A stretch of DNA of 64,000 bases from assembly GCF_009914755.1 (NCBI RefSeq), contig NC_060925.1. The stretch is one strand, 5' to 3'. The position numbers and the translations under genes were made by a program. This document shows, piece by piece, positions 37,190-59,900 of this stretch. Under the pieces are notes generated by a model. That model had not been told where the DNA came from. It saw only the letters and a list, made by a program, of their open reading frames with translations, and did no database searches. The DNA is from the human T2T-CHM13v2.0 reference genome, Homo sapiens. Position 1 is the first letter of the stretch; every line of letters begins with the position of its first letter.

Positions 37190-37246
37190 CCCTGACAACA
37201 TAATCCATTTACTGCAAAGGGATATAATAAAGTCTGTTTATTACAG
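37190..37246 (-). terminator. Poly(A) site of the BLACAT1 terminal exon
   Basis: Minus strand reads TGTAATAAA (UGUA overlapping AATAAA at 37242-37237), followed by U/GU-rich actttattatatcccttt...ttatgttgtc. Confidence 0.7.
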
Positions 37247-38382
37247 CAATTAACAGAGCAGCGTTTGCCGGCATGCTTTTCAGTGGCAACCAGAAAAGTG
37301 CTTACTCCAGGTGCATAGATTCGGGAAACCATGCAACTTGAGCCAAAATGAAACCAATTAGAGGCTTAGTAAATGGGTTCCAGCCACCCCAGGAAACTTA
37401 ACCATCCACGAGTCAGTTCAGCCGAGGTAGAACCTCAGTGCAGGAATTTAGCATGATATAGATTGCTACTTTACAGAATTAATCCAGACCTGTCGCCAGG
37501 GTTGTGGTCTTGAGGACGTGAAATGTATCCGCCCAACACAGCCACCCAGGTGCTGGGTTCAAATCTCGATAAACTACATAGGGGTATATAGGTGGGGAAC
37601 GTTAGCACCATTGACTCTCAGGGGTCTCTTGCCACTGCCATGGAGGTGGGGACATAAGGAGAGGACTAGAAGCTGGGCCAGAGGGAACAGACAGAGAAAG
37701 AACAGAAATCCTTTCATTAGACCCTGTCTTCAAGAGCCTGGATTGAAATGTGGCCGTCTTGAGTAGGGGTGAGGAGGAATCTACTTTTCAGCCTGGAGAA
37801 TATATGCTATTTTGCTTTAGGCAGAAAGACTGGACAAAGACATGAAGCCATTTGTTCCGGTTCTTTGGTGGAGGGACAGAAGAAAGGGAAGTACGGGTTT
37901 CAATTCCCCAGTGAATCTGATTGCTAATTAACCAAATTTAATTATCTATCCCCTTTTAGGAGGGCAGGGGTTGGCTTATACCACCAACAGGACATTCTTC
38001 AGAATGAAGTTTAATTTTCCCAAGAAGGGAAGTGGCTGCAGTGTCATACCTGTGTAGGAAAAAATCCATCCTGATTGGCAGCTCTTCTCCAGTCTCTCAG
38101 GGAGACCATGCAGAGTTTTGATCTAGAAAACATAAACCTGGGTGCCTGAGCCAGGTAGAAAACCAAAGGCTCAAAAGGGCAGAGACAAACCCCTGTTAAA
38201 CAGTTCCCCCTGGCTGAGGGGTGACCTTAGGGGTTCCCCTTTTCTCCATCACTTTTTCCCATCCTCAGGCCTCTGGGAGAAGATGCTGTGTTAAAGGATG
38301 AGGGCAGAAACCAGCCTGGCCTCTCTGGAACAGAGAAAGTTAGAGCTTTGAGCATCATGAACAACGGGATAAAAATAGCAGT

Positions 38383-38396
38383 GTTGCCATGGCAAC
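38383..38396. promoter_or_regulatory. Perfect palindromic RFX X-box
   Basis: GTTGCCATGGCAAC; the palindrome extends to 16 bp (38382-38397). Confidence 0.65.
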
Positions 38397-40084
38397 AGAG
38401 GCTGGGAGAGTCCTGAGGATCTGTCTGGGTCCTGCCATCTCCCCCTCCTGCCTTCCTCCCGCCCCTCAGATGGAACACGGGAATGAGCTGAAGGAGGAGA
38501 GACGGCTGCCCCAGAAGGGAAAGAGACAGACCAGCAGCCCACGAGGAAAACCCTTGAACTCCAGACTTGGGGGGTGGTTTCTGTCAGCTCCTGAGCTGCC
38601 CAGGTCTGGGAGCTCTTGGCTTTGGCAATTTCTTCCTCAGTATGACGACTTCCTCCAGGGATGCCCTGGGCAGCTACCGCTCACCCTCCTGGTGGATGGT
38701 TCTGACCTCCTGGGCTCCTCCGTGAAGAGTCAAGGTTCCTGTTTCTTCTTCATGATCTATAGTTCCTATCCCATGGAAATTTAGAGAAGCGAACCCAGGC
38801 GGACTGGCCACAATAACCCCGGCACAGTGGGCACTGACCACTCCAGGGATGGCCTGGGGGTCCAGAGGATTCACCCTGACAAGGCAGATACCCTTGTCAG
38901 CAATATGGACTTGGGGGGCTGTGTTTGTGTTGGGAGCAGGGTGATGATGGTGACAGCTCTCTCTTGCTCTTGCTTTTGGGTCAGAGAGATAGAACATTCA
39001 TTCCTTGGGAACAGATTCTGTTTCTTGGTTCTTGTGGTACTGTCAGCTTGATCACCTGCTGGACATAGCAGCCACCTTCAGGAGGAACACCAGACTTCCT
39101 GGACCAGCCTGCAAGGAGCCCACTGAACTCAGCAGCCCAGAGATTTTCTTCTCTGGTGAAAGCCCACCTTTGCGGTTGTGAACCAAGTATCTGTCTCCAA
39201 AAGTTCCAGCCACATCTGGGCACATCTGATAAGTGTGCCCTTTATAATGCGTGCCTTCCTGTGAGGTAGGGAGGAAATGGGACTCATCGCCACCTGTTAT
39301 GGAGGAGGCTGGGAGAGAGGAGGCAATTTGCCAAGGTCAGGAGTCAGTCATGGCAGAACACTGGGGGGCTGTGGCTCTCCATCCAGAAACAATCACCAGC
39401 ACATTCCACCACCAGCACATCTCCAGCCACTGGGCAAAATGCATATTCAGTCTGTAGACAGGACAAACTCCAGCCTGAGGCACTTCCCCTTGCAGAAGGC
39501 AAGGAATGAGGTGGGGTGGTTTGATCAGCATGGAGATGAGCACATGAGGAGCTGTGCAAAGGGAAGCCCATGGGTTACATAACTGGAGCAGAGCGCCAGT
39601 CCTTGAGATCTCTTCTAGAATCACTTGAGCATCTATCTGCAGGTGGTTGTGGTGGTGGTGGTGGTGATGCTGTGTGTATGTGACAGAGAGAAAGTGAGAA
39701 CGTACATAAGAGTGGCGCCTGTGATGGCCTAGACAGGACCTGGAGTCAGAGTCTAGGCCAACTGACTTACTCCCCTTGGGCCTGGCTGTAGGAGGGAAGA
39801 GAGGCAGAACTGCAAGGAGTCCTGGGCCCTGGCTAGGGGAAGATTCTAGCAGAAGCTCTGGGTGACTTGCCTTTCCCTCTCACTCCCCCTCTCACTTCTC
39901 AGAGCCACCATACCACTTCCATCCACCCTCCAGATATGTCTGTTGTCTGCACGGAGTGCATCTGTGAGGGCAGAGGAAACCTGCGACCCTCTGGTTCCAC
40001 AACCCTATGCCCCACTGAGGCTCAACTTCCCAGACTCACAGAGCCCTGGACTCCAAAGGAGACTTAAGAGGAAATTTATGTAAT

Positions 40085-40215
40085 CCCCTATTTATAGTTG
40101 AGGAACCTGAGTCTCAGAAATAAGACATGACTAGTCTAAGGTCACATAGGTCATTAGTTTCCAAGCAGGGCTAGAAGCCAGGAGACCTGGCTCCCAGCTC
40201 AGTGCTCCTTGCATC
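40085..40215 (-). mobile_element. MIR
   Basis: gaggaacctgagtctcagaaa ... aaggtcacatag. Confidence 0.7.
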
Positions 40216-43200
40216 CCACTCTAACACTTCATGTGTATTTCAGTTAGTTAATTATTGCTCTTTTTTTTTCCTAAAAATAACAATCTCCCTATATATTTCT
40301 ATGAACCCATATGCTACATGCAAAAAGCCCTTCCCTGGGAGCAGAGAAGGAAATGACATTCTGATAAAAAGGTTTCAACCTGAGACAAGAAGCCCCTTGG
40401 GTCCTGTGGGCCAGGGTCCTAGGCAACACTCAAGTCACAAGGACCCCAAGCACCCTTCACACTTCTTGATCTTCCATTCAGCAGCCTGAAGCCCAAGAGG
40501 GAAAATGGCCATGGGAAGTCCTCGCTTTACAGATGGGGAAAACTGGCCCCCTCACCCATCTGCAAGGAGGAATCAGTGCCACGCAGCAAGAACAAGAGGC
40601 CTGATCTCCTCCACAGAATCATCTACCCATGTGCCCCTCCCTCACCCCAAGAGCTCAGGGCCCCCACCTCAAGGTGGAGTCTCTGGGAGAGAACCATGGA
40701 GAGAGGATGGGAAGGCAGGGCAGCCAGGCCCACCCTAGAAGGAGCAGAAGCCTGGCCCGAAGTCAGAGGCCCAGGGCGCAGGGTCTGCGAATGCTGGGGC
40801 TGCTTTGGCCTTTCCCTATTCCCTGGGCTCATCCAAGGGCCTAGAGGAGGGCACAGGTGTCCAGACTGCTTCCTGAGATGCTAAAAGGAGCAAAGTCCCC
40901 ATTTTCCTGAGAAGGAAACTGAGGGACAATAGAATGTGGGGTTGGGGTGTGCCTGGCTAGAAGCTGCTACCTCCTGCTCAGACAATTCCAGCTGCAGTGC
41001 TGGCCCCAACCTCAGCCCTGGGTGAAGAAGGGGCTGCCGGCTTGGAGGCAGAGGACAACTGGACCTCCACTCAGAACACTTTGACCTTGGGACCCCACCC
41101 ATGTTCCCAAAGCCAGGGCTCAAGATATCTAGTATCCCTCTGGAGCCAAGGGAGTTCTCCCGGGGGAGGAAGCTCTCTGGATGGGCTCACTGCCAAACCC
41201 CTGCAGCTGCAATCCCTGCCAAGGCCTGAGAGGCGCACAAGGGGAAAGCTCTCCTCGGCCACCCGCTCCCCAGGACGTACTTTCTCCACTTTCCTAACCT
41301 TTCCTCCTGGTGAGCCTGTGTGGTCAGGACATAACACCCAATATCTCTGAGTCTCCGGGGATACAATTTCATCCTCTGCCACAGAAGTGACTTTTCTAGG
41401 ATTGCAGCCTCGCAGGTGACCGCTAGGGAAACACATGCCCTCCAGGAGGCTCTCTGGCCTCTGTATCAAGGTAACTTTTTCTGCCCATCTCTTTGCCTCA
41501 CCCAAGGCCTCTACTATCCAAGAGGACAAAGAACCAGGGAGTTTTTCTTCTGTCCTTTGTGACCCCACTGGCCTTTATTGCTGAATCTTGCTGTTCCCTT
41601 GAGGGAAGGACTTCCGTTTATAATTCTTTGGATATAAAAGGAAATAACAGATTGTAGAAGGTGGGGGCTAGGAGGTAGGGGCAAAGGAAGGGGTTGGAGG
41701 ATGGGAGGAGGAACTCAAGCTGTGCTCAAGCCTCATAAAGACAACCTGAATCCCACCCAATCTGCCCAAAGCCCAGGAAAGGCCCCTGAGTGTGGGCATG
41801 AGCTGGGCAGGCAGAGGCTGCCAGCATAGAATGTGCCCTTGCTTCTCCCAGGTTTTGGGCGAACCAGCCGAGGAAGACTTTTGCCCTCCCTAGTTGCCCA
41901 GAGAGGCCCACATTCCAAGGAAAGGGGAGCCCTGACTCTCCTATCTTGGGGCCTTGCCCTCTCTACCCAGGTCACCTGTTTACCTGTCAGAAGGGCTATT
42001 CTGTCCCTGGGGAGCTAGAGGGGGTCTGACTTTGCTCCTTGGCTGAGCTGCTCCCTGATGAGGGAGAACAGGCTTACAGAATCTGCCTGAAGCACCTCTG
42101 CTGCTGGCATTCGTCTCTGCCTGTCTTCTAGCCCCGGAGAACTCCAGGATCAAAGACAAAAGGCTAAGTTATACCAAAATGAAGGGAGAGAGGAAGGAAG
42201 GAAGAAGGAAAGAGGGAAGGAAATGCTTTTTTCTTTTGCTTCCTACCTCCTGGAAATGGGCTGGGGGTAAGGGCAGAGGCTGAAGCTGGAAGGTTGGCGG
42301 GGGTGGGGGATGAGGGAAAAAGTCGAGGAAGGTCCTAGAGGTCCCCCTACCCTAAGAGTTTCCACCGAAGGCACCACATACGAACGCAGTCCCCTCTATG
42401 GCTTCTGAGGAGAGAAGAAAAAGGCAGGGGAGACAGGAGAATCGAGGGAGGGCACGGCTCAGTCCAGGAAAGGGGTCCCTCAGTCTGGCCACGGCAAGAC
42501 AGTCCCTGAGGAGGGGAGTCAGGGCCTGGGGAACAGGCCTCCCCACATCTGTGATGCTGGCAAGGAGGCACAGGCATCATGAACACGGGTGGGTCAGGGC
42601 CGGGGCTGGAGGAAACACTGCTTTCTGGAGAGCAAGAACAGAGGGAGCCACGGAGCCACTGGCCACCTCTGCCTTCCTCCTCACTGGGCTGGCCACCTCA
42701 GGCCTGGCCCCACCTGGCCCAGGAGGATGCTGGCAGGGGGCTGGAAAAGGATTCTTGCCCCAGGTCCTGGAATCCCAGGAGAGTCTCACACTTCCGCCCT
42801 GGAGGCCTTCTCCAGGGTCAGGGCTGCTGGAAGTTCTCTGCTAGAGCAGCCAGTTTCCCATTTAGCAACAGCTCTCCTAGCCCAAGGCGGCACATGCCTC
42901 ATGCGGTTACCCTGAGAAGAGTCCCCCGAAGCTCTCAGGGCAGGAAAGAAGTTTCACTCCTTGGCCTCCCTGGGGCTTCTCAGTCTCTGGAAGGCATGCG
43001 GCAGGTCCTGGGGTTCCCCCTTGTGTGGCTGGGGCCTCTCTCCAAGGAGGTCTGAGAATTGGAAGCTAATGGGTGTGGGCATGAGGAGGATGAGAGGCAC
43101 ACAGGAGGCTGATGCCCTCGGGTGAGAGTCAGGCTGAGAAGAGCACTGGCTAAATCAAGACTTAAGATACACACACGGCTTCCTGCTCCAAGCCCCAGCC

Positions 43201-43262
43201 AGAAGCAGGCACCATCAGGCCTGGGACCTGCTGGGGGCTTGATGGAGGGGCCCTGGTTCTGA

Positions 43263-43364
43263 TCACACCGCCGTCTCCCGCTCTCTGTGAACTTCCTCCT
43301 TCTTCCTCTTCATTTTGCAGAAGCCGTGGAGACCACAGAAGCAGGCGAAAGTGAACTGGGGCAT
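43263..43364 (-). CDS. BLACAT1: 33-aa microprotein MPQFTFACFCGLHGFCKMKRKKEEVHRERETAV
   Basis: Hand-translated: ATG 43364-43362 (G at -3, in-frame TAG two codons upstream), TGA 43265-43263. It is the first ATG after a strong acceptor (long pyrimidine tract + ccctgcag|, exon start 43400). Matches the BLACAT1 peptide as I recall it. Confidence 0.85.
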   Translation of the reverse strand: MPQFTFACFCGLHGFCKMKRKKEEVHRERETAV

Positions 43365-46300
43365 GCCCTACGCCAGGCTGGGGGAACACTCACCAGAGAT
43401 CTGCAGGGAAAGGCAGGGGAGGGAGAGGGGGCAGGAGAAAGGCAGGAAGAGAGAAGCAAGCTGGGGTTAATGCTCCCAGAACCCTCTGGGTCTGGCCCAG
43501 TCATTGCCACTCCCTGAGGCGGCCCGCTAGGTCTCTCACACCGGCTGGGGGAGGAGTCAAGCCTCTAAACAACAGCTCTTTGAAACCTCAGTGTTTCCTG
43601 ATCTGTGTGGAGCTGATGTCATTCCTCACATTGGAGACAGGGTGAGTCCAAGGGAGGAAAGAGAATGCCCAGCTGCTGCCTCCTTTTTTCCCCTCCCACC
43701 CGCTCTGCCCCACCTCATCACCATATACCTGTGGTTGGGGAACAGGAAGCAAGCTGGCTTAAAATAGCCTCCGGCTTGTGCCACCTTACACCAGGTTCTA
43801 GCTGGGGGCTTCCACTCGCTTCTGCAGGTTGCACACACGACAGGCCCTCCTCCATCCAAATGCGGACCCCTTCATCCAGTGTAGCTTTACTTTGACACCT
43901 GGGACCGAGTCAGATTCCTCCCTTCCTTAACAACCCCAAGTTGTCTGACACCCTAGGAAAGCCTATAGGGAGCAATTATACCCTTCCTTTGACTGCTCAG
44001 GGCAATGCAAATCCCATCCTCACCATGCAGAGAAGAGACAGCAAAGAGGGTTCTTTTAGCCAACAGGCTCTTTTATTTAGCACCTATGCTGGGCAAAGGG
44101 TTGAGAGGTAGATACAAAAGGGTAAAGACATGGTTTCTTCCCTGGCACATAAGTCTGAGGTAGAGGCTGAGGCTGGATCTGCCCCAGCTGGACACGCTGT
44201 CCCCCACCTCTGGCTGACCCGGCCCTCAGCAGGAGCCAGGGGCCGCTCTGGTATCTGTTGCAGTCTGGCTGGGGAAGAGAGGGAGCTTCAGGAGCTCAGC
44301 TTCAGTCTGCAAGAGTATCCCTTTCTCCAAAGGCTCATTTAGGTTTCCCTAGCCTTAACCACCTGCAGATTTTTCCAGTTCACCTCTCTGCCCTTCCTCT
44401 GCCCCTGGGCCTATGGAAAGGGAGCAGAAGTGCACTCAAGCCACTCAAGCGGAGAAGCTGAGAACAAAGGAAGGAAAGCGCCCTGCGTGGAGGTCAGGCC
44501 GGGGCCTGGTCTGAATCACTCCTCTCTCCAGGAAGAACATGGGGGCAAGCAGGTGAGTGAAGCCCAAGTGCTGCGGGGAAGGAGGGAGGCACAGGGCTAT
44601 GCTGAAGGGGTTTGGAATAGGGAAGCATGAGGCGCCTCCCTTCTCCAGCCCCTCAAGCAATAGAGATTGCATAGGATGTCCTGGGTTACCCCAGCAAGGC
44701 ACATGTGCAAAGTGGTTTCACTGCCTTTGAGGAATGTGGCATGGCCCAGATGGTGGCTCTCTGGACAGTTCCACTGGTCTGGACAACCTTGCCCTTTTGG
44801 AAAAACTTCCTTCGTGTTTCTCCAGACAGAGCCAAGGCCCACACCAAGCACAGTGCCCGGTGGATCCAAGTCCTGTCAAGATTCTCCCCTCCCTCAGCCT
44901 CTCAGCGTCCCGGTAATACAGCTAATAGCTGTAATTAATAGGTGCAATGCATTTCCACTGGCCAGCTGGATGGGCAGGAGGCCCAGCTTGAGTCAGCATG
45001 GGTAGGTAGGCTGGTTATTTAATAACCCGATTTCCAGCATCATTTACACACCCACTCTGGTGGAGTATATATAGTTAGCAGAGAGCAACCTCCAGGATAT
45101 ATATAGAGCCAAGACACAACTACTATATTTCTAGATCTATCCCCTGCAGCTATCTCTGGATCCCTCCTGTGACAAACCTAGAGAGAGACGGGGATCCAAT
45201 CTGGGACTTAGGTGGCCTGGGTTCTATTCCTGGCTCTGATGCTAACATGCTGTGTCATCCTAAGCAAGTGGCTACATCTCTCTGGGCCTTCATTACCTCA
45301 TTTCAGTGTACCAGGAGATTAGGCAAGATTTAACACTAAGACCCCAAACCTAAGGGGCTGGAATCCTAACTTGATCCGGAAGGAGGGAGGGAGGGCAGGT
45401 GGATTCCCGTGTAATCAGTTATTGTCACACGTGCACTTCTCTTGCTGGGGATATAAGTCAAGGGTATGATCAACAAAGCAGTCCCATGATTATTGAAAAA
45501 TACATGGGGAGAAATTGACAGGCACAACAAGGCTAATCTGGGAAGGAACTCCCAACTAAAACAAGCCAGGCAGGTAGCAGCCCCACAAACAGGTCAAGGT
45601 GCAGCTCAGGGTCTCTGGCCCCAGAGTGCATCGATCCCCTTTCCTTTTCACCCCACTTCCTTTTCAATGACTGTTCTTTCTTAAAAACAGCAGAATATAC
45701 CCCCTTAAATGACCCGTTCCTCCCCAGGGTCCTTTGGGGGAATTTAAGAAAATCCTGGCTTTTTTTGCTCAGCTTGTCACTGTAGGGAAGGATGGGGAGT
45801 GAGGTCACAGGAACCAGAACCTACACATCAGAGGAAAGGAGAGCTAATGAAGCTGGCCAGGAGCTGGGCTAGGGGCTGTAGCCTGGCTCCCGAGAGGTGT
45901 TCGAGGGCTGGCTGCCTCAGTGGGATTCCTGGGTCCTTGTATCTAAGAGTAGAAAGTATCATAAACAGGGCCTGGTTATTCTGCTCAGATCTTTGCTCTA
46001 AAGTGCTCTGGTTATCCTTCCTCTTCTCTAACAGGGTCTCTAAAAGGGTCCTCACTGTAAGGTGCACAACTCCATGCCCCGGAGGCTGCCTGGGCTCTGT
46101 CTGCAGCATGCAGATTGCCGGGCCAGCCCCTGAAGTGGGGGGACATGGGGCAGAGAATTCCAACCCATTTCAGTATCCCTGCCCGCTGTGAACCCCACTC
46201 CTCCCTCAGAGTCCCCAGCAGCAGGTACCTGGGGAGTCCCTCTGCCAGGCTGTGGTCTCTGCTCCTCTCTGCTTTGCTCGAGCAGGAGTCCTGTCGACTC

Positions 46301-47602
46301 TCTTCCCTGACTTTACCCCTTCACCCTTGGCAGAGGGCTCCAGTACCAGCTGGAGGCTCCCTGAAGTCAGGTCCCCTTGCTGCGTCTATTTGAGGGGGAG
46401 GAGTCTGGACTAGCACCTGGGTCCACTCCCCACTCATCAGAGCTCATCATGGGAACTCCCCTCCCATCCTCCCCCTCCTTTTCCATGCCCATAGTCCAGG
46501 AGGGACTAAGGAATGGAAAAACAGCCCCCAGAAAAACAGAAGCCCAGAATAGGATGGAGAGGCAGGGTGGACACTGGACAAACCTCCTGCTACCACACAG
46601 TTGGCTGCATCTGACTGCAAGCTGTTGGCCCTGGCTTCTTCCCCATCCTCCTCTCTGGCTTTTTCCCAGCTCAGGTCCAAGATGGTTTACGGTCTGGGGG
46701 CACAGACGATGCCCTGCCCAGCCAGCTTTGTGGGAGCCAAGCAGAAGAGATGCCAATCCATAGAGCATCCGTCCTCCCCCACCACTAGGAGGTTCCTCGG
46801 CCTCCCTGCTGATCCTTTCCCTTGGCCTGACCCCCACATCTCTCTGTGCCAGATACTCTCCTGGGGTCCTCCAACCCTTGCACCTCTGGCAAAAATGGGG
46901 CAGTGAGTCAGAGACAGCATGAACATGTGGAAGAACCAAGAGAAAGAGGAGACTCAGAGCAGGCCAGAAAGTAAGATAAAGAGAAATCCAGGGCCCCAGG
47001 CTTGCAGACCACAAACTCCTAGGTGTCTCGAATTTTGGCAATGTCCTTCATCAGAGTGGGCGGCAGCGGGGGTGGAAGGCTAGGAAGCTATTTAAAAGTG
47101 CTGGGGCATGCCAGCAATTCTCTGATAAACAAGAAGAGGGATATTGCGCCCCCCACGACCCATCCCTTCATCTCCCAAGGCAGAGAGCAGAGGCACTCTC
47201 AGCAAGGCAACCCCCACCTTAACTCCCCGCCACCCCCCACCCCAGGTAAAGGGCAAAAGAGAAGTGACCCAGTAAGGAGGGTGTGCCCTCGACGCCTCTA
47301 GAACAAAGCTGAGCCCTCCGCCCCCTCCCCGGCTCCCTTAGCACCGCGTCTCAGTAATTAAAATATGAATTCACCTTCCCTCCCTGAGCCATTCATCACT
47401 GCGAAGGGAAGCAGCTGCGGCTTAGGAGACCGGATTTGGGGGATTAGCTCGGGCGGTGGAGCAGACACACCAGGAGAAAGAATTAAAAACGAAGGGGGTG
47501 AATTGGGTTTTCTCTCCCCACCTCCTCCCTCTCCCTCTCCCTCTGGCCGCCACGGAGCCTCCTTCCCCACCCCTTCCCCCAAAGCCTAGCCTCTGCAGGT
47601 TT

Positions 47603-47681
47603 CTGGGAACTGTAGTCTACAAGACCGTGTTGATAAACAGGCAGGCCAGGGGTGGGTGGTGGCACAAACTACAGATCCCAG
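47603..47681. promoter_or_regulatory. Divergent pair of ACTACAnnTCCCAG (ZNF143/THAP11-associated) motifs
   Basis: ACTACAGTTCCCAG on - (47603-47616) and ACTACAGATCCCAG on + (47668-47681). Confidence 0.55.
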
Positions 47682-49479
47682 GACTTCTTCCCGGAGTTGG
47701 CACCAGCAAAACTGGGCACAGACCTCCAGTCTGGGAGAAGCCCGCATTCTCCTTGGAGGTTAACTCCTTCTTGGCCTGCTTGAGCCTGAGCTCTAGCCTC
47801 TGGCTCACCGAGCTCTCTGGAATCACAGGCCAAGGCCTCTGCCTCCAATGGCCTTCAGAGACCACAGACCCTAGCTTGCCAGACCAGCCACCCTTGTATC
47901 TTGCTTGCCCACCTATGGAGAAAGCTCCCTCCACTTTTTCCAGACTGCAAGGGCAGCCAAGCATTCTCAGTGGTTCTCAGATTCTTGGGAGCTGGAGAGG
48001 TCAGAGCAGCAATAGTCCTGAAATGTCTTTGTGGCCTGCACTCAGTGTTTTCCAGCCTGGCTCGGCAGAGGCTGGCCCACCGTAAGAGTGGGCAACGTGA
48101 CAGGCAGCAGCAGCTGGGAACCTGGTGGACCAGACTGTCAGCGCCAGAATGAACCCCAAAGGTCAAACTTTAGTGTCAAACTTTCGAAAGATGGGGAGAG
48201 AGACTTTTTTTCCCCAATAGTCTTTATATTTAGGAAGGAGTAGGGCTTAGTAGTCAAACTCTATTTCCACTAAAAATGGAACAAATACAATAAGAGAGAG
48301 TCATCTGAATTCAGTGTTGTTAAACATGGGCCCACTCTCGCAAGGGAGGCCTTATGCTGGGTATATCTGAGGACTGTAAAAAAGACTTAGATTGCTGGGA
48401 ATAAAGTTTCAGCCGTCTGCAGGCAGGGGACAGGACACACACAGCCCTCTGATCTGTGAATCCTCCAGGGAGAAGGGACATGAGGGCAACTTGCTTATTC
48501 AATGCAATTGAACAATCATGTGAAATATACAATCACATATCTTCTCCAGGCCTGTCCCACTGGCAGTAGCCAAGAGACAAAGAATAGAATGGAGATCCAC
48601 CTTTGTAACCCCCAGAAGCAATCCAGGCCCAGCCCCAGCAAAGCGAGGACTGTCTCGGGTGAGTTGCTGAGCTGTGGGCTTGCTCTATGTCCCTGCTGGT
48701 GGCAACTTACCTCTTTTACCCCATCCATCTTTTCTCCCAGTTCGTACTTCATTCAACAAACATTTACTCAGCCATCCCTACAAAGTCCCTTGCCTTGCTA
48801 GAGCTTTACAGAGGTATAATCTCTGGAATGGCTCATCTGTACCCTTCCTCCTAGGCTGAGCCCAGTGCTGGGGACTACCCGGGCAAACTGAACAACAGGA
48901 TTCCCGGGAGGGGCCCAGTTGCAGGGGGCAGGAAGGTGGCATGGCTCTAACCTGGCTTTCCAGTTAGGAGATCAGGAGTTAAGGGAAGGAAATCAGGTGC
49001 CTGGACAGCCTCAGAGCAGGGTAGGGAATAGGATAGGCTCACTGTGGGCCCAGGGCAGCTGGACAATGAGGGAGGTGGAGGAAGGTGCCAGCCATCTCTG
49101 AACTCTGGGTGAGAGAACCCAGAGGGCAAGTAAGAAACCCTGGCCAATTCTCATGCCTTGTTCCTTTCACCATCTAAGCTGGGGCAGGAGGGGAAGTAGC
49201 CTGGATCAGCCCCAGCAAAAACCCAGCTGGCTTGGGATTTCTCTTTGCTTCTCCTATTGTTCTGATCCCCCGGCTCCCCCCGACCTCCTGTGGGAAAAGG
49301 AAAACCAGTGATGGACAAAGGGTGATTGGAGTTGGGCCACGGGGCCAATTTGTGGACGTGCATCCAATAGAGATCTCGTGAGAACAACCTCCCGTCTGGG
49401 TACAGCACTCCCTGGTTTTCAGAGTACTTTCCCATGCACTGGTGTTGGCTCTCCCAATATGCAGCATGATGTGCTAAGA

Positions 49480-49700: not shown

Positions 49701-50642
49701 TGAAATTAAGGGCTCTGAGATATTATAAGAAACTTGCCTTCTGATTGTCAATACCAAATCTAGTGCTTTCTGTGATTCTTCAGTGGTCTGTCTTAGACAG
49801 ACTGGGGACTGGAACAGGGAGTAGGAGGCGGGGTACGAGGATGCTTCCTCTTCCACCACAGCCACCTGTTGGAATCTTCCAGGATGGGAGGGCTAAAATC
49901 AGGCCGATTTAAAAGGGGGCAGGGGAAGGAATGTGGGAGTGGCGACAGGCATAGGGAGGAGCCAGGCAAGCTGAGTGACAAGCAGGACGGGGGCAGGGAG
50001 GGCTGGTGCCCTTCACACACCGCAGGAGGGGGCAGCTCCTGGAGATGGTAGCACACCAGGAGCCAGGGACCCTGGAGTCCAGCCTGTCGCCCGGGGGAGC
50101 GCCCTGCCTTCCTAGTTTCACTCTGCAGACACCTCCTCTTCCCTCGTGGCCGGCATGGAGTGTTCCCATTTCAGCCTCAGAAAGAGCCCAGAGGTCTCCT
50201 TACACAGAAAAAAGGCTGCAGATTCCAAGCTGACCTCAGAGAAAGGAGTGAAGGAGTGAGGTTTTCCTGGAGGCACTGAGCAAAGGCCCAAGTCTTCATG
50301 GCCTGAGGCCCTTGACTTCAGCCCCCAAATCTCTGGCCATAAGCCAGGCCTCAGTAATTTGGCAAGGGGGAAGGAACCGACTCAGAAAGCTCAGCACACC
50401 CTGAAGGTCTCCTTCCTTCCTCAGAGGGAATCTCCCTCTGGAACCACCGGCCCAGTCTCTTCATTCCAGAGTGAGGAAACAGGGCCAGAAGGGAAGTGAC
50501 TGGGCCAAGGTCACACGGCTTAGCCCCGATCCCAGGTTACCAGATCCCGTGATGCCCCACCCCCAAGCAAAGCCTCCTTCTGGTGCCCCTTGGTGGCTGG
50601 CTCCGAACCTGGTCCCATGGGAGGTGCAGCTGCGCAGGAGAA

Positions 50643-50739
50643 GGAGCTCGCCCCTCACTGTAGCCCATGGCTTTTAGCCCTACATGAGTTTGGGACAGCA
50701 ATCACATAGGAATGAAAAGCCATAGGCCACAGCAGAGTG
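50643..50739 (-). ncRNA. MIR135B: pre-miR-135b hairpin; 5p UAUGGCUUUUCAUUCCUAUGUGA at 50702-50724, 3p AUGUAGGGCUAAAAGCCAUGGG at 50664-50685
   Basis: Exact match to the mature miR-135b sequence; complementary arms; CNNC motif (CUCC) 18 nt downstream of the 3p end. Confidence 0.98.
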
Positions 50740-52208: not shown

Positions 52209-52290
52209 CTGGCGGACTCAACAAGGCCCCCTTTCCCTCGCAGTCCGCCTCACAATTCCCCGCAGAGCCACTTCCTGCCTTCCAGGCAGC
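52209..52290 (-). other. Candidate distal first exon for LEMD1/BLACAT1/pri-miR-135b (5' end approximate)
   Basis: Donor CAG|gtgagc at 52208, 1.5 kb upstream of the miRNA. ETS core near 52270, AP-1 TGACTCA 52402-52408 and GC boxes upstream. Confidence 0.55.
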
Positions 52291-52624
52291 CACTCACTCC
52301 TCCACTCACCCCGAGAAGCTCCACGCCCCAGCGAGGGCAGGCCTCCTCCCTCCCCCTGCCCGCCCACCACCGGCCAGGGCTGAGCTGTACCCAACTCAAC
52401 TTGACTCACTTGTGACCGGCCCCTCCCCCAGCCCTGAGGACGGTGGGGGTGGGGGTGGGGGCGGGCTGGGCAGGCGGGGCAGCCAGGTATTCCTTCAACC
52501 CTGACTTGGGCCTGAGTAACAAAGGTCTCATTGAGCCTCTGGCTGTCTGGTCGGTGAAGCACAAACCTCTTGTATCTACTGGCTTTTGATCTCACTCCCT
52601 CTGAACCAGCCATGTATTACTCAC

Positions 52625-57999: not shown

Positions 58000-59900
58000 G
58001 GAACAAAGGCAATGGGGGCGGGGAGGGGGCTTCCTCTTTGGTCGACCTAGGGCGGCGGCTGACGCAGCCCGCCGCCGGTCAGCTTTCAGGTGAGTGCCTG
58101 AACCCGCATCCCGCCCATGCCTTAGGGACCCCTCTTCGCCCAGCCAAGCCCGGGGCGGGGAGGAAAGTCCCCCTCAGCCGCACTCGGGCCCCCAACCCGG
58201 CCAAGGGGTCGCCAACTCGCGGCACTTTCTGCCTGTTTGTTTTCGCTCAGTACTCACAGTTTAGATGCTAAGCCGGCTCCTCTTGCACTCACTTCCTTTG
58301 TGTCTCTCTCTCTCTTTCTCTCTCTCTCCCCCTCACCAATCTCTTTCTTCCCTCCTTGTCCGATTCTCTGCTGTAGCTTCCAGTGGAGAAAAATAATTAT
58401 TCTTCAATGGGTTAGCACGGGGCGCACGCACACACGCGCGCGCACACACACCCCGCCGAGGTACCCAATCAATGCACAAATCTTCGGGGTCCCTTTAACC
58501 TCTGCGGATGACTCCGGGAGTTAATTATGAAGCCTATTTCGGCGCGGCATAAATATGCATTAAGGTAGGAAATAATCGATACGCTGAACTTCTGGGAACT
58601 GGCATTTAGACGGACTCCGTCTCGCCGCCCCCCACTCCCTCCATGGCCCCACGAGCCACCTCCACAGCCTCGCGCCTTCCCGGGGTCGCAACGCCTATCA
58701 CAAGCTTCTACCCGGGTTTCAGGGGGCCCCTGTAGTGGCGTGGGCGCCGCGCCGGTGCCGGGAGACCCCCTCGTGCGCCCTCTGCGGTCGGGGCAGACCC
58801 TCAGCCGGAGCTTCTTCCTCCCCCACCCCTGCAGGCCGGGCCCAAGCTGCGACACCCCCAGCACGGGCTCAGCCTGTGAACAAACTCCGAGCTCAGTACT
58901 CGGAGGAACTGGCGAGAGCGGGACGGCTACCTGCCCGCACGCCCGATTTCCGGGCACAGCTAGAAAGACCGGGACGCGATTCAACTCCCAATCCGGTGAA
59001 TCCGCCTAGCGCCTTCGGGTCCTGCCGCCCCCGGCCAGTCCCGACCCGCACACATATGCAGGCATTTGCACACACGCGCGCACACACATGCACGCACATG
59101 CACACACACATATGCACACCCTCGCGCACACAGACACTCCCGCGCGCGCTCACGCCCGCACACACTCAGGGTTATAACAAAGGAAGAGGGGCCAGCGCTG
59201 CCTTACTTTTGTCTCTCTTCTCTCTTTTGCAGCCCCCCAGCCCCGGGGCCGGCGTGCCCGGCCCACCCCGCCCTCCGCGCCCCCCGACGGCCGCGGTCAG
59301 CCGGCATTCCGGAGCAGCGCGTCGGAGCTGCAACTTCGCGCCTAAGCGCCCGCACCTCGCAGCCCGGCGGGCGGGAGACAAAAGCTGCGGCGCCGCCGCC
59401 GGAGGCCGCGCGGCCAAGGTGTGTTCGCTAATTGTCAGGAAATGTGTGTGTGTGCGGCCGGGAGCCCGCAGGGGCGGGGGAGGGGACGGAGGAAGAGGAG
59501 ACCCACCCCTCCTACCCCCGCCACTCGCCAGCGCCGGGTACCCGAACCGGGATTAGAGAATAAATTATCTGCTCTCTTCTCATTGGGCTGTGGCTGAGGA
59601 CGCCGTCGGCGGCGCCGGGCTGGGAGCTCTCCCGGCTCTTTGCATTCACCGCACAGCTCCGGCTCGCCTCGCTTCGTGGAGGCCGAGAGCCCGGGGCCTC
59701 GGCTCCAGACATCAGGGGACACCAGCCGGCTGGCCGCGCCGCCCCGCCCCTCCCCTCCCCCGCCACCCGGCTTGGCCTCAGCCCCCTCCCCTCCCAATTC
59801 TGGCTTGGGTCTTGGGGACGAAGATACTAGGGGAAAAGGCCTAGAGGCCGAAGATCCCAGTATCTTTCCTCCTCTCCCGCCACGCCCCCTTCCCAAGGAG
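58000..59900. promoter_or_regulatory. CpG island, probably a bidirectional promoter (BLACAT1 on -, divergent lncRNA on +)
   Basis: Dense CpG, GC boxes, splice donors on both strands. Confidence 0.85.
58258..58430 (-). other. Candidate most-distal BLACAT1 first exon (two tandem donors)
   Basis: Donors GAA|gtgagt (58292-58287) and ACT|gtgagt (58257-58252) at the CpG island edge; the exon contains no ATG. Confidence 0.55.

What the first reader, a model, noticed from the sequence alone, without database searches (positions are those of the whole stretch)
43263..43364. Hidden 33-aa microprotein with a Cys/Phe-rich N-terminus, polybasic run and C-terminal class I PDZ ligand (ETAV)
Seen: the ORF is absent from the supplied track, bounded by an upstream in-frame TAG, and is the first AUG after a strong acceptor. 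It reads MPQFTFACFCGLHGFC-KMKRKK-EEVHRER-ETAV. Known: BLACAT1 is widely studied as a cancer lncRNA. I recall this peptide being annotated recently, but I know of no function for it. Cys next to hydrophobic and polybasic residues is a typical S-palmitoylation/membrane-targeting layout, and a C-terminal E-T-x-V is the class I PDZ-binding consensus (DLG/MAGI-type ligands). Inference: a minimal lipid-anchored tether or competitor for PDZ scaffolds, which could account for some phenotypes attributed to the lncRNA.
Basis: partly seen in the sequence, partly recalled or inferred. Interest (0 to 1): 0.9.

Follow-up and report, generated by a model that had tools for sequence, protein, structure and literature searches.

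The report
Ancient conserved 33-residue BLACAT1 microprotein
The small open reading frame in the "non-coding" cancer RNA BLACAT1 is a real, already annotated gene for a 33-residue protein that has barely changed from sharks to humans, and its conserved tail looks like a docking tag for scaffold proteins, though its function has not been tested.

Summary
The ORF is real: 43263-43364 on the minus strand, 33 aa, starting at the first AUG of NM_001397426.2.

It is not hidden. RefSeq annotates it as the BLACAT1 CDS. GENCODE found it by whole-genome PhyloCSF in 2019, with status "now made coding".

I collected 77 homologues, named from mammals, birds, reptiles, amphibians, teleosts and a catshark.
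- In 29 short forms, residues 1-11, H13, G14, C16, K19, K21, K22 and the C-terminal E, T and V are invariant.
- The linker and the -1 position vary freely.
- 71 of 77 models stop directly after E-T-x-V.
- Identity falls from 98% (residues 1-24) to 18% just upstream of Met1.

Published work shows that ETAV C-termini bind PDZ domains: PSD-95 PDZ1/2, SNX27 and C. elegans DLG-1 PDZ2.

So the gene is a conserved microprotein whose tail is probably a class I PDZ ligand. S-acylation of the Cys-rich head is plausible but untested. The head is more invariant than a lipid anchor alone would need.

I found no evidence that the peptide explains the lncRNA phenotypes, and the transcript originally studied may lack the ORF.

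The complex prediction could not be run. I saw no translation data.

The parts
43263..43364 (-). Complete CDS of the BLACAT1 microprotein: 33 codons plus the TGA stop at 43263-43265.
   Evidence: Matches the RefSeq coding part in the hub table. Single copy in the human genome at DNA and protein level.
43317..43364 (-). Codons 1-16: aromatic, Cys/His-rich head (C8, C10, H13, C16). Candidate S-acylated membrane-binding or metal/partner-binding module.
   Evidence: 14 of 16 positions are invariant in 29 short orthologues; the other two vary only L/F; the identical 16-mer occurs in 65 of 77 homologues. Kyte-Doolittle mean is 1.51 for residues 4-16, and the best 19-aa window is only 0.55, so this is not a classical transmembrane helix.
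43299..43316 (-). Codons 17-22: polybasic run (KMKRKK in human), net charge +5.
   Evidence: K19, K21 and K22 are invariant. One search gives the charge. A role in binding acidic lipids, or as a nuclear import signal, is inference.
43278..43298 (-). Codons 23-29: acidic pair, then a variable linker.
   Evidence: this stretch holds the highest column entropies. All length changes (33 to 38 aa) fall here and are in-frame. The AlphaFold2 model has a low-confidence helix at residues 20-26.
43266..43277 (-). Codons 30-33: E-T-A-V, followed directly by the stop. Candidate class I PDZ-binding motif.
   Evidence: E30, T31 and V33 are invariant in 29 of 29 short forms, and position -1 is A/S/V/E/Q; 71 of 77 homologue models end exactly after ETxV.
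43365..43400 (-). 5' leader part of exon 2, with an in-frame TAG at 43368-43370.
   Evidence: the same codon reads Q in the fur seal model. Identity in the 12 residues upstream of Met1 is 45 of 252 (18%), against 492 of 504 (98%) for residues 1-24.
43401..43435 (-). Splice acceptor (AG at 43401-43402) and pyrimidine tract of the intron before exon 2.
   Evidence: CCCCTCTCCCTCCCCTGCCTTTCCCTGCAG|ATCTC.
58258..58386 (-). Exon 1 of NM_001397426.2: 5' UTR with no ATG, followed by a GTGAGT donor. It lies in a GC-rich promoter shared head-to-head with LEMD1-DT.
   Evidence: GC 0.53-0.75 across 57.3-60 kb.
37223..43262 (-). 3' UTR of 6040 nt, with an A[AT]TAAA signal at 37237-37242. The distal part probably corresponds to the RNA studied as the lncRNA.
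   Evidence: One search gives the length and the signal 20 nt from the end. The link to the 2616-nt transcript described is inference.

Best explanation
Shown:
- 43263-43364 (minus strand) is the coding sequence of an ancient jawed-vertebrate microprotein gene.
- Start, stop, reading frame and near-constant length (33-38 aa) are kept from catshark and teleosts to human.
- The protein is under strong purifying selection.

Inferred architecture, four modules:
1. An invariant aromatic/Cys/His head (residues 1-16). It associates with the cytosolic face of a membrane, most likely after S-acylation of one or more of C8, C10 and C16.
2. A juxtamembrane K-x-K-x-K-K patch that binds acidic lipids.
3. 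A short, freely evolving, disordered linker.
4. A free C-terminal E-T-x-V that docks into class I PDZ domains of the DLG/PSD-95, syntrophin or SNX27 type.

Inferred function: the peptide acts as a minimal membrane-tethered PDZ ligand. It would either recruit a PDZ scaffold to a membrane domain or compete with other ligands. GENCODE annotators noted possible brain/neuronal specificity.
For: Gene status:
- First AUG of the RefSeq model.
- A PhyloCSF candidate coding region covers exactly this ORF. The annotator note reads [quoted passage not shown], with status "now made coding" (PMC6886504 supplement files 3 and 8).
- Listed as an annotated small CDS classed "conserved" (PMC10032668 supplement file 1).

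Conservation:
- 24 of the 26 hits from 1.84 billion representative proteins are homologues.
- Named orthologues come from mammals (including platypus and a marsupial), birds, alligator, turtle, lizards, frogs, axolotl, five teleosts and a catshark.
- Invariant columns in 29 short forms are M1-G11, H13, G14, C16, K19, K21, K22, E30, T31 and V33.
- All length changes fall in the linker and are in-frame.
- 71 of 77 models end right after ETxV.
- Identity is 98% for residues 1-24 against 18% just upstream of Met1, and that upstream frame holds a stop in human.

PDZ reading:
- T at -2, V at 0 and E at -3 are invariant, while -1 is A/S/V/E/Q and -4 is R/Q/Y.
- N-cyclohexylethyl-ETAV binds the canonical pockets of PSD-95 PDZ1 (Ki about 3.9 uM) and PDZ2 (2.0 uM) (PMC4503980).
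- A CRHR1 tail changed to ETAV still co-precipitates PSD-95 (PMC4564177).
- DGK-zeta needs its ETAV for PDZ-dependent engagement with SNX27 (PMC8790036).
- C. elegans ATAD-3 needs its ETAV to bind DLG-1 PDZ2 (PMC4977824).

Membrane-anchor reading:
- There is no stretch of transmembrane length (best 19-aa hydropathy 0.55). The head is hydrophobic (1.51 over residues 4-16) and is followed by a +5 patch.
- Cys next to hydrophobic and basic residues resembles known N-terminal S-acylation sites (GAP-43, PSD-95). This resemblance is recalled, not tested here.

RNA-level explanations are unsupported: no Rfam family reaches its gathering score, and the RNA fold z-score is +1.19.
Against: - No binding, acylation, localisation or translation data were seen for this peptide.
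- The only in-silico binding test (beta-syntrophin PDZ plus the peptide) never ran. The queue was full and the tool then became unavailable.
- AlphaFold2 gives no confident structure: mean pLDDT 56.1, pTM 0.15.
- A [ST]x[VIL] end occurs in 17 of 555 random ORFs of this window, so the motif by itself is weak. The case rests on conservation.
- Invariance of Q3, F4, T5, F6, A7, G11, H13 and G14 is more than a lipid anchor needs. It points to an additional or different role for the head.
- Exceptions exist. The ostrich model carries H13R, F15S and K17E. Six of 77 models run on past ETxV, though these are probably mis-modelled.
- Teleosts have Y at -4 and E/Q at -1, which may change PDZ preference.
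- The BLACAT1 RNA is reported as mainly nuclear in bladder cancer cells (review PMC7445530). That argues against much translation in those cells.
Confidence: 0.45

Rival explanations
1. It is a conserved microprotein, but the head is a metal-binding or partner-binding module rather than a lipid anchor. C8-x-C10-x2-H13-x2-C16 would chelate Zn or Cu, alone or shared with a partner in the manner of a zinc clasp. The ETxV tail may still bind PDZ domains.
For: C8, C10, H13 and C16 are all invariant in 29 of 29 short forms, together with G11 and G14. The non-Cys residues of the head are invariant too, which fits a precise fold or interface better than a greasy anchor. The CD4/Lck zinc clasp built on a CxC motif is recalled from memory as a precedent.
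Against: There is no Pfam match and no PDB sequence match at E up to 10. The spacing differs from the CCHC zinc knuckle (C-x2-C-x4-H-x4-C, recalled). The AlphaFold2 model has no compact fold, though it was made without metal. The ostrich model has R at position 13.
Confidence: 0.2
2. It is a conserved microprotein that acts in the nucleus or nucleolus. The K-x-K-R-K-K run would be a classical monopartite nuclear import signal, and the peptide would bind nucleic acid or chromatin proteins.
For: K19, K21 and K22 are invariant. KRKK matches the K-[KR]-x-[KR] import consensus (recalled). Net charge is +3 and pI 9.06.
Against: A 3.9-kDa peptide needs no import signal. This reading does not explain the hydrophobic Cys-rich head or the invariant free ETxV end. 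Several orthologues break the R at position 20 (T, G, P, H, Q).
Confidence: 0.1
3. The head is a cleaved signal peptide, and the charged 17-residue remainder is a secreted peptide.
For: The hydrophobic N-terminal 16 residues have small residues at -3 and -1 of a possible cleavage site, G14 and C16 (sequence).
Against: The conservation pattern is the reverse of a secreted peptide precursor. The supposed signal is invariant while the supposed mature peptide holds the variable linker. There is no basic n-region before the hydrophobic stretch, and the h-region contains Q, T, H and two G.
Confidence: 0.03
4. The peptide has no function. The conservation would reflect an overlapping DNA or RNA element (RefSeq lists an enhancer at 42737-43318), or the act of translation as for a regulatory upstream ORF.
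For: RefSeq functional-element track in the hub table. The exon was once modelled as a LEMD1 5' exon (PMC6886504 supplement). The region is part of a widely cited RNA.
Against: Conservation starts at Met1 and stops at the stop codon. The frame and length are kept over the whole of jawed vertebrates, with only in-frame indels. The linker changes amino acids freely while the flanking codons do not. A PhyloCSF coding signal is in print. No RNA family or unusual fold was found. No downstream main ORF exists in the selected transcript.
Confidence: 0.03

Closest known systems
C-terminal ETAV PDZ-binding motifs of diacylglycerol kinase zeta and C. elegans ATAD-3
   Same: The last four residues are identical and at a free C-terminus. 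Deleting them abolishes PDZ-dependent engagement with SNX27 (DGK-zeta; PMC8790036 passages) or binding to DLG-1 PDZ2 (ATAD-3; PMC4977824 passages).
   Different: Those motifs are tails of large enzymes. Here the tail makes up an eighth of the whole protein. No partner is known for the BLACAT1 peptide.
Synthetic ETAV-based PSD-95 inhibitors (N-cyclohexylethyl-ETAV, derived from the GluN2B tail)
   Same: The tetrapeptide ETAV occupies the canonical pockets of PSD-95 PDZ1 and PDZ2 with low-micromolar Ki (PMC4503980; described in PMC3738590).
   Different: The inhibitor is a designed, N-alkylated compound. In the ranking reproduced, the unmodified tetrapeptide ranks low among the 38 ligands (29th for PDZ2). 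The natural peptide has different upstream residues.
CRIPT, a small Cys-rich protein whose C-terminal QTSV binds PSD-95 PDZ3 (recalled from memory, not checked here)
   Same: A small, Cys-rich, basic protein whose function runs through a class I C-terminal PDZ ligand.
   Different: CRIPT is about three times longer and uses CxxC zinc motifs. No sequence similarity was found: there is no Pfam or PDB hit, and only BLACAT1 homologues appear apart from two repeat-protein false hits.
N-terminal S-acylation plus basic-patch anchors of GAP-43, PSD-95 and calcium-channel beta2a (recalled from memory)
   Same: Cys residues in a short hydrophobic N-terminal stretch are followed by Lys/Arg. There is no transmembrane helix.
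   Different: Those motifs tolerate variation and sit at residues 3-5. Here the Cys residues are at 8, 10 and 16 within a 16-residue block that is invariant across jawed vertebrates. Acylation is untested.
Conserved microproteins found inside annotated lncRNAs, such as myoregulin, DWORF and mitoregulin (recalled from memory)
   Same: A short conserved ORF in a transcript long treated as non-coding. It was found by conservation and re-annotated as coding.
   Different: Those are single-pass transmembrane peptides. This one lacks a transmembrane-length hydrophobic stretch and carries a C-terminal linear motif instead.

Membership tests
Protein-coding gene (conserved microprotein) | Start codon, stop codon and reading frame conserved in orthologues, with indels only in multiples of three | tested here: met
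   Core lengths are 33 (35 distinct cores), 34, 35, 37 and 38 aa. 71 of 77 models stop after ETxV. Met1 is present in 76 of 77; one sparrow model (P0022) reads DA in place of MP.
Protein-coding gene (conserved microprotein) | Constraint confined to the ORF and acting on the amino-acid sequence | tested here: met
   98% identity for residues 1-24 against 18% in the 12 residues upstream. The human upstream frame holds a stop. A PhyloCSF region is reported in print. I did not compute codon-level dN/dS because no orthologous DNA was available.
Protein-coding gene (conserved microprotein) | Evidence of translation (ribosome footprints or peptides) | not tested
   No such data were seen. bioRxiv supplements are closed.
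Class I PDZ-binding motif (X-[S/T]-X-hydrophobic at the free C-terminus; consensus recalled) | Motif sits at the extreme C-terminus, directly before the stop | tested here: met
   (GAG ACG GCG GTG TGA). 71 of 77 homologue models agree.
Class I PDZ-binding motif (X-[S/T]-X-hydrophobic at the free C-terminus; consensus recalled) | S/T at -2 and a hydrophobic residue at 0, conserved while -1 is free | tested here: met
   T and V are invariant in 29 of 29, E at -3 is invariant, and -1 is A (18), S (5), E (3), V (2) or Q (1).
Class I PDZ-binding motif (X-[S/T]-X-hydrophobic at the free C-terminus; consensus recalled) | Tail accessible (not buried in a fold) | tested here: inconclusive
   The AlphaFold2 model has pLDDT of about 44-51 over the last 13 residues and no structure there. 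This fits disorder, but the whole model is of low confidence.
Class I PDZ-binding motif (X-[S/T]-X-hydrophobic at the free C-terminus; consensus recalled) | Physical binding to a PDZ domain | not testable with these tools
   The complex-prediction job was never accepted and the tool then became unavailable. Binding is shown in print only for other proteins ending in ETAV.
S-acylated N-terminal membrane anchor | Cys residues in a hydrophobic context next to basic residues, with no transmembrane helix | tested here: met
   C8, C10 and C16 are invariant, hydropathy is 1.51 over residues 4-16, residues 17-22 carry +5, and the best 19-aa window is 0.55.
S-acylated N-terminal membrane anchor | Thioester-linked fatty acid on Cys, and membrane localisation that depends on it | not testable with these tools
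   This needs acyl-biotin exchange or metabolic labelling, plus imaging of Cys mutants.
CCHC zinc knuckle | C-x2-C-x4-H-x4-C spacing (recalled) and a Pfam match | tested here: not met
   The spacing here is C-x-C-x2-H-x2-C. There are no Pfam families at E up to 10.
Single-pass transmembrane micropeptides (sarcolipin/phospholamban type) | A hydrophobic helix of about 19 or more residues | tested here: not met
   the best 19-residue window has a mean of 0.55, against a usual threshold near 1.6 (recalled).

The most novel reading that the evidence does not exclude
BLACAT1 encodes an ancient, neuron-enriched, lipid-anchored 33-residue PDZ ligand. It would be a natural counterpart of the synthetic ETAV peptides designed to block PSD-95. 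It would tune DLG/PSD-95, syntrophin or SNX27 scaffolds at a membrane, using an invariant Cys/His head as a specific targeting or metal-dependent switch. Part of the knock-down biology published for the "lncRNA" would then be loss of this peptide.
Probability: 0.25. Interest if true: 0.8.

Novelty: new member of a known kind. Interest (0 to 1): 0.55.

Why it matters
BLACAT1 is treated as a non-coding RNA in a large cancer literature. A 2020 review still calls it non-coding on the basis of sequence analysis, and my search on BLACAT1 plus "peptide" returned 132 papers, none about an encoded peptide among the 15 listed.

The locus nevertheless carries one of the most constrained small ORFs one can find. 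A 16-residue block is identical from catshark to human, and the tail motif matches experimentally proven PDZ ligands.

The existence of the gene is not new. What is open, and now directly testable, is its function. The alignment tells experimenters which residues to mutate: C8, C10, H13, C16, the K patch, T31 and V33. It also shows where a tag can be placed without harm, namely the variable linker at residues 25-29, because both termini are probably functional.

It also warns that siRNA or CRISPR experiments on BLACAT1 cannot separate RNA effects from peptide effects unless ATG-only mutants are used.

Tried and rejected
Searches that found no relatives or structure:
- Pfam found nothing at E up to 10.
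- The ESM Atlas holds the sequence letter for letter but gave no usable neighbour.
- A PDB profile search with the 29-sequence alignment gave 0 hits at E up to 10.
- The human genome has no paralogue at DNA or protein level.
- Two of the 26 representative-library hits (P0002, P0027) are repeat proteins matched in many short stretches. I dropped them as false hits.
- The AlphaFold2 model was too poor (pLDDT 56) for a fold search, so I ran none.

RNA explanations:
- Rfam gave only sub-threshold matches.
- The RNA fold was no better than shuffles.

I did not pad it. I used the representative search instead, and later natural longer homologues as queries.
- Two look-ups of the 2022 Ribo-seq ORF catalogue paper failed because it is not held.
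The queue was full each time, and the tool was then declared unavailable. No verdict exists.
- Paper reading closed, so the supplements of PMC13275300 were not seen.

Literature searches for a described function of the peptide. I saw listings only and none was relevant. Subscription journals are not covered.
- BLACAT1 + microprotein: 1 paper
- + Ribo-seq: 3 papers
- + open reading frame: 44 papers, 25 listed
- + micropeptide: 12 papers
- + PhyloCSF: 0 papers
- + peptide: 132 papers, 15 listed
- + PDZ: 21 papers, 10 listed, none with both terms in title or abstract
- first 14 letters of the peptide: 0 papers

Readings rejected: signal peptide, classical transmembrane peptide and CCHC knuckle (see the rival explanations and membership tests).

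Full report
**Observation**

An in-frame TAG lies two codons upstream. The exon starts at 43400, behind a long pyrimidine tract and a CAG acceptor.

I joined exon 1 (58258-58386) to exon 2. Exon 1 has no ATG, so the ORF's start is the first AUG of the 6307-nt model, at nt 166, in the context GGC-ATG-C. The stop lies in the last exon and is followed by a 6040-nt 3' UTR with a poly(A) signal 20 nt from the end.

Length alone carries no weight, because the same mRNA has 21 ATG-ORFs of 33 aa or more.

One search examined 555 ATG-ORFs of 20-100 aa in the window:
- 17 end in [ST]x[VIL].
- One (this one) ends in E[ST]xV.
- One (this one) combines that ending with at least 3 Cys in the first 16 residues and a K/R run.

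The RefSeq table supplied by the hub lists exactly this interval as the BLACAT1 coding part.

**What is already in print**

Supplementary data of Mudge et al. 2019 (PMC6886504; I saw passages of files 3 and 8) list a PhyloCSF candidate coding region at this place, ranked 602. [quoted passage not shown] The status is "under investigation; now made coding". The rest of that note (683 characters) was cut in the stored file. The main text does not name the gene.

Sandmann et al. 2023 (PMC10032668, supplement file 1) list the peptide as an annotated small CDS classed "conserved". Their main text does not mention it.

The GENCODE 2025 paper (passages) describes the general PhyloCSF route to such genes but does not name this one.

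Eight searches for a described function of the peptide returned nothing relevant in the listings I saw. A 2020 review still describes BLACAT1 as non-coding on the basis of sequence analysis, as a 2616-nt single-exon transcript, and as mainly nuclear (PMC7445530, passages).

**Conservation**

A search of 1.84 billion representative proteins gave 26 hits at E of 0.001 or better. Of these, 24 contain the peptide at 66-97% identity over its whole length. The other two are repeat proteins matched in many short stretches, which I set aside.

The named library added more. In total, 77 homologues besides the human protein hold the core motif.

The sources' own names are mostly "bladder cancer associated transcript 1". 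The organisms include:
- Placental mammals, a marsupial and platypus
- Many birds
- Alligator, a turtle and six lizards
- Three frogs and axolotl
- Five teleosts, including zebrafish
- The catshark Scyliorhinus torazame

The class placements are my own knowledge, except for the catshark and the mormyrid, which I checked. No hit lies outside jawed vertebrates. The human genome holds no second copy.

The pattern inside the alignment of 29 short forms (33-38 aa) is the main result:
- Invariant positions are M1 to G11, H13, G14, C16, K19, K21, K22, E30, T31 and V33.
- Position 12 is L or F, and position 15 is F or L.
- Residues 25-29 have the highest column entropies, and every length change falls there, always in-frame.
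- The residue between T and V is A, S, V, E or Q.
- The residue before E is R, Q or Y.
- Of the 77 homologue models, 71 end directly after ETxV.

The six models that run on are gene models from reindeer and a finch (named) and from unnamed sources. In two of them the residue after V is W. That would fit a TGA stop read as Trp by a predictor, but this is my guess.

Many models are extended upstream, and those extensions are unrelated to each other. In seven models from seal, elephant, two birds, lizard, alligator and frog, identity is 45 of 252 (18%) in the 12 residues before Met1. It is 492 of 504 (98%) in residues 1-24. In human that upstream frame contains the TAG.

Constraint therefore begins at the start codon, ends at the stop codon and acts on the protein. 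I could not compute dN/dS because no orthologous DNA was within reach. For codon-level evidence I rely on the published PhyloCSF signal.

One exception should be recorded. The ostrich model has H13R, F15S and K17E.

**What the parts suggest**

The tail meets the class I PDZ-ligand consensus (recalled): a free C-terminus, T at -2 and V at 0. It evolves as such motifs do, with fixed anchor positions, a free -1 and a free linker.

Papers retrieved by a search for ETAV with PDZ show that this exact ending is a working ligand:
- N-cyclohexylethyl-ETAV displaces a probe from the canonical pockets of PSD-95 PDZ1 (Ki about 3.9 uM) and PDZ2 (2.0 uM) (PMC4503980). It was derived from the GluN2B tail, as described in PMC3738590.
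- A CRHR1 tail mutated to end in ETAV still co-precipitates PSD-95 (PMC4564177).
- DGK-zeta lacking its ETAV loses PDZ-dependent engagement with SNX27 (PMC8790036).
- C. elegans ATAD-3 lacking its ETAV no longer binds DLG-1 PDZ2, in yeast or in vivo (PMC4977824).

I saw passages of these papers, not the whole texts.

From memory, syntrophin PDZ domains prefer [R/K/Q]-E-[S/T]-x-V. That would fit the tetrapod tails (R/Q-E-T-x-V). This is a lead, not a test.

The head has no transmembrane-length hydrophobic stretch: the best 19-residue window scores 0.55. It is hydrophobic over residues 4-16 (mean 1.51) and is followed by a +5 patch. That layout resembles known N-terminal S-acylation sites (recalled).

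Invariance of the non-Cys residues, and the C-x-C-x2-H-x2-C arrangement, leave room for a metal site or a specific protein interface instead of, or as well as, a lipid anchor.

AlphaFold2 with the alignment gave no confident structure: mean pLDDT 56.1, pTM 0.15, and one short helix at residues 20-26. Pfam, the PDB and the ESM Atlas gave nothing.

**The attempted binding test**

I located PDZ domains in the human genome. I picked the single-exon PDZ of beta-1 and beta-2 syntrophin (identified through PDB entries 7p70 and 2vrf) and aligned the two. I then handed the pair to complex prediction together with the peptide alignment. The queue was full at every try, and the tool was finally declared unavailable. 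No result exists, and nothing can be concluded from this.

**Alternative explanations**

An overlapping RNA or DNA element is unlikely to be the cause of the conservation. No Rfam family reaches its threshold, and the RNA folds no better than shuffled sequence (z = +1.19). The sharp boundaries and the variable linker argue for protein-level selection.

A cleaved signal peptide is unlikely, because the supposed signal is the invariant part.

A nuclear role for the K patch and a metal-binding role for the head remain open.

**The link to the lncRNA literature**

Nothing I found connects the peptide to the reported cancer phenotypes.

Suppose the 2616-nt single-exon RNA of the original description shares the 3' end of the present model at 37223. 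It would then reach only to about 39838, which is 3.4 kb short of the ORF. Over-expression constructs would lack the ORF, while knock-down reagents could still hit the mRNA's 3' UTR. This is inference. I did not see the old transcript's coordinates.

**Verdict**

The feature is real and is a bona fide, already annotated, extremely conserved microprotein gene. Palmitoylation, membrane tethering and any partner are untested. The function is open and well suited to direct experiments.

Noticed in passing
window 37223-39838 (inferred) versus 43263-43364: A review gives the originally studied BLACAT1/linc-UBC1 as a 2616-nt single-exon, mainly nuclear RNA. If it shares the 3' end of the RefSeq model, it ends about 3.4 kb short of the ORF. 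Over-expression studies of the "lncRNA" would then not express the peptide.
   Followed up: partly
window about 59219-59611, minus strand (converted from hg38 with a constant offset): The same PhyloCSF cluster in the PMC6886504 supplement lists further candidate regions upstream of the BLACAT1 start site, inside the GC-rich promoter/LEMD1-DT exon region (GC 0.63-0.75). Long stop-free frames exist there on both strands, as expected from the GC content. GENCODE annotated only the 33-aa CDS.
   Followed up: partly
window about 50627-50668, minus strand: Another PhyloCSF candidate region of that cluster overlaps MIR135B (50643-50739). It is probably conservation of the miRNA hairpin scored as coding.
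   Followed up: no
window 47375-48556, minus strand: This alternative 5' exon of other BLACAT1 transcripts holds nine ATGs. In that isoform the microprotein ORF is far from the first AUG and is probably poorly translated. The alternative exons 52209-52295 and 43729-43804 hold none.
   Followed up: partly
P0023 (ostrich model): This is the only homologue with several changes in the otherwise invariant head and basic patch (H13R, F15S, K17E). It sits at the end of a 207-aa GC-rich model. It could be real divergence, a decaying copy or an assembly error.
   Followed up: no
P0025, P0026 (unnamed sources): Two teleost-like models continue past ETxV with W as the next residue. This would fit a TGA stop translated as Trp by a gene caller using another genetic code on contaminant vertebrate DNA.
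   Followed up: no
window 43310-43504, minus strand: A 64-aa ATG-ORF in another frame overlaps the start of the CDS, but it begins in the intron upstream of the acceptor. It is not part of the spliced model.
   Followed up: no
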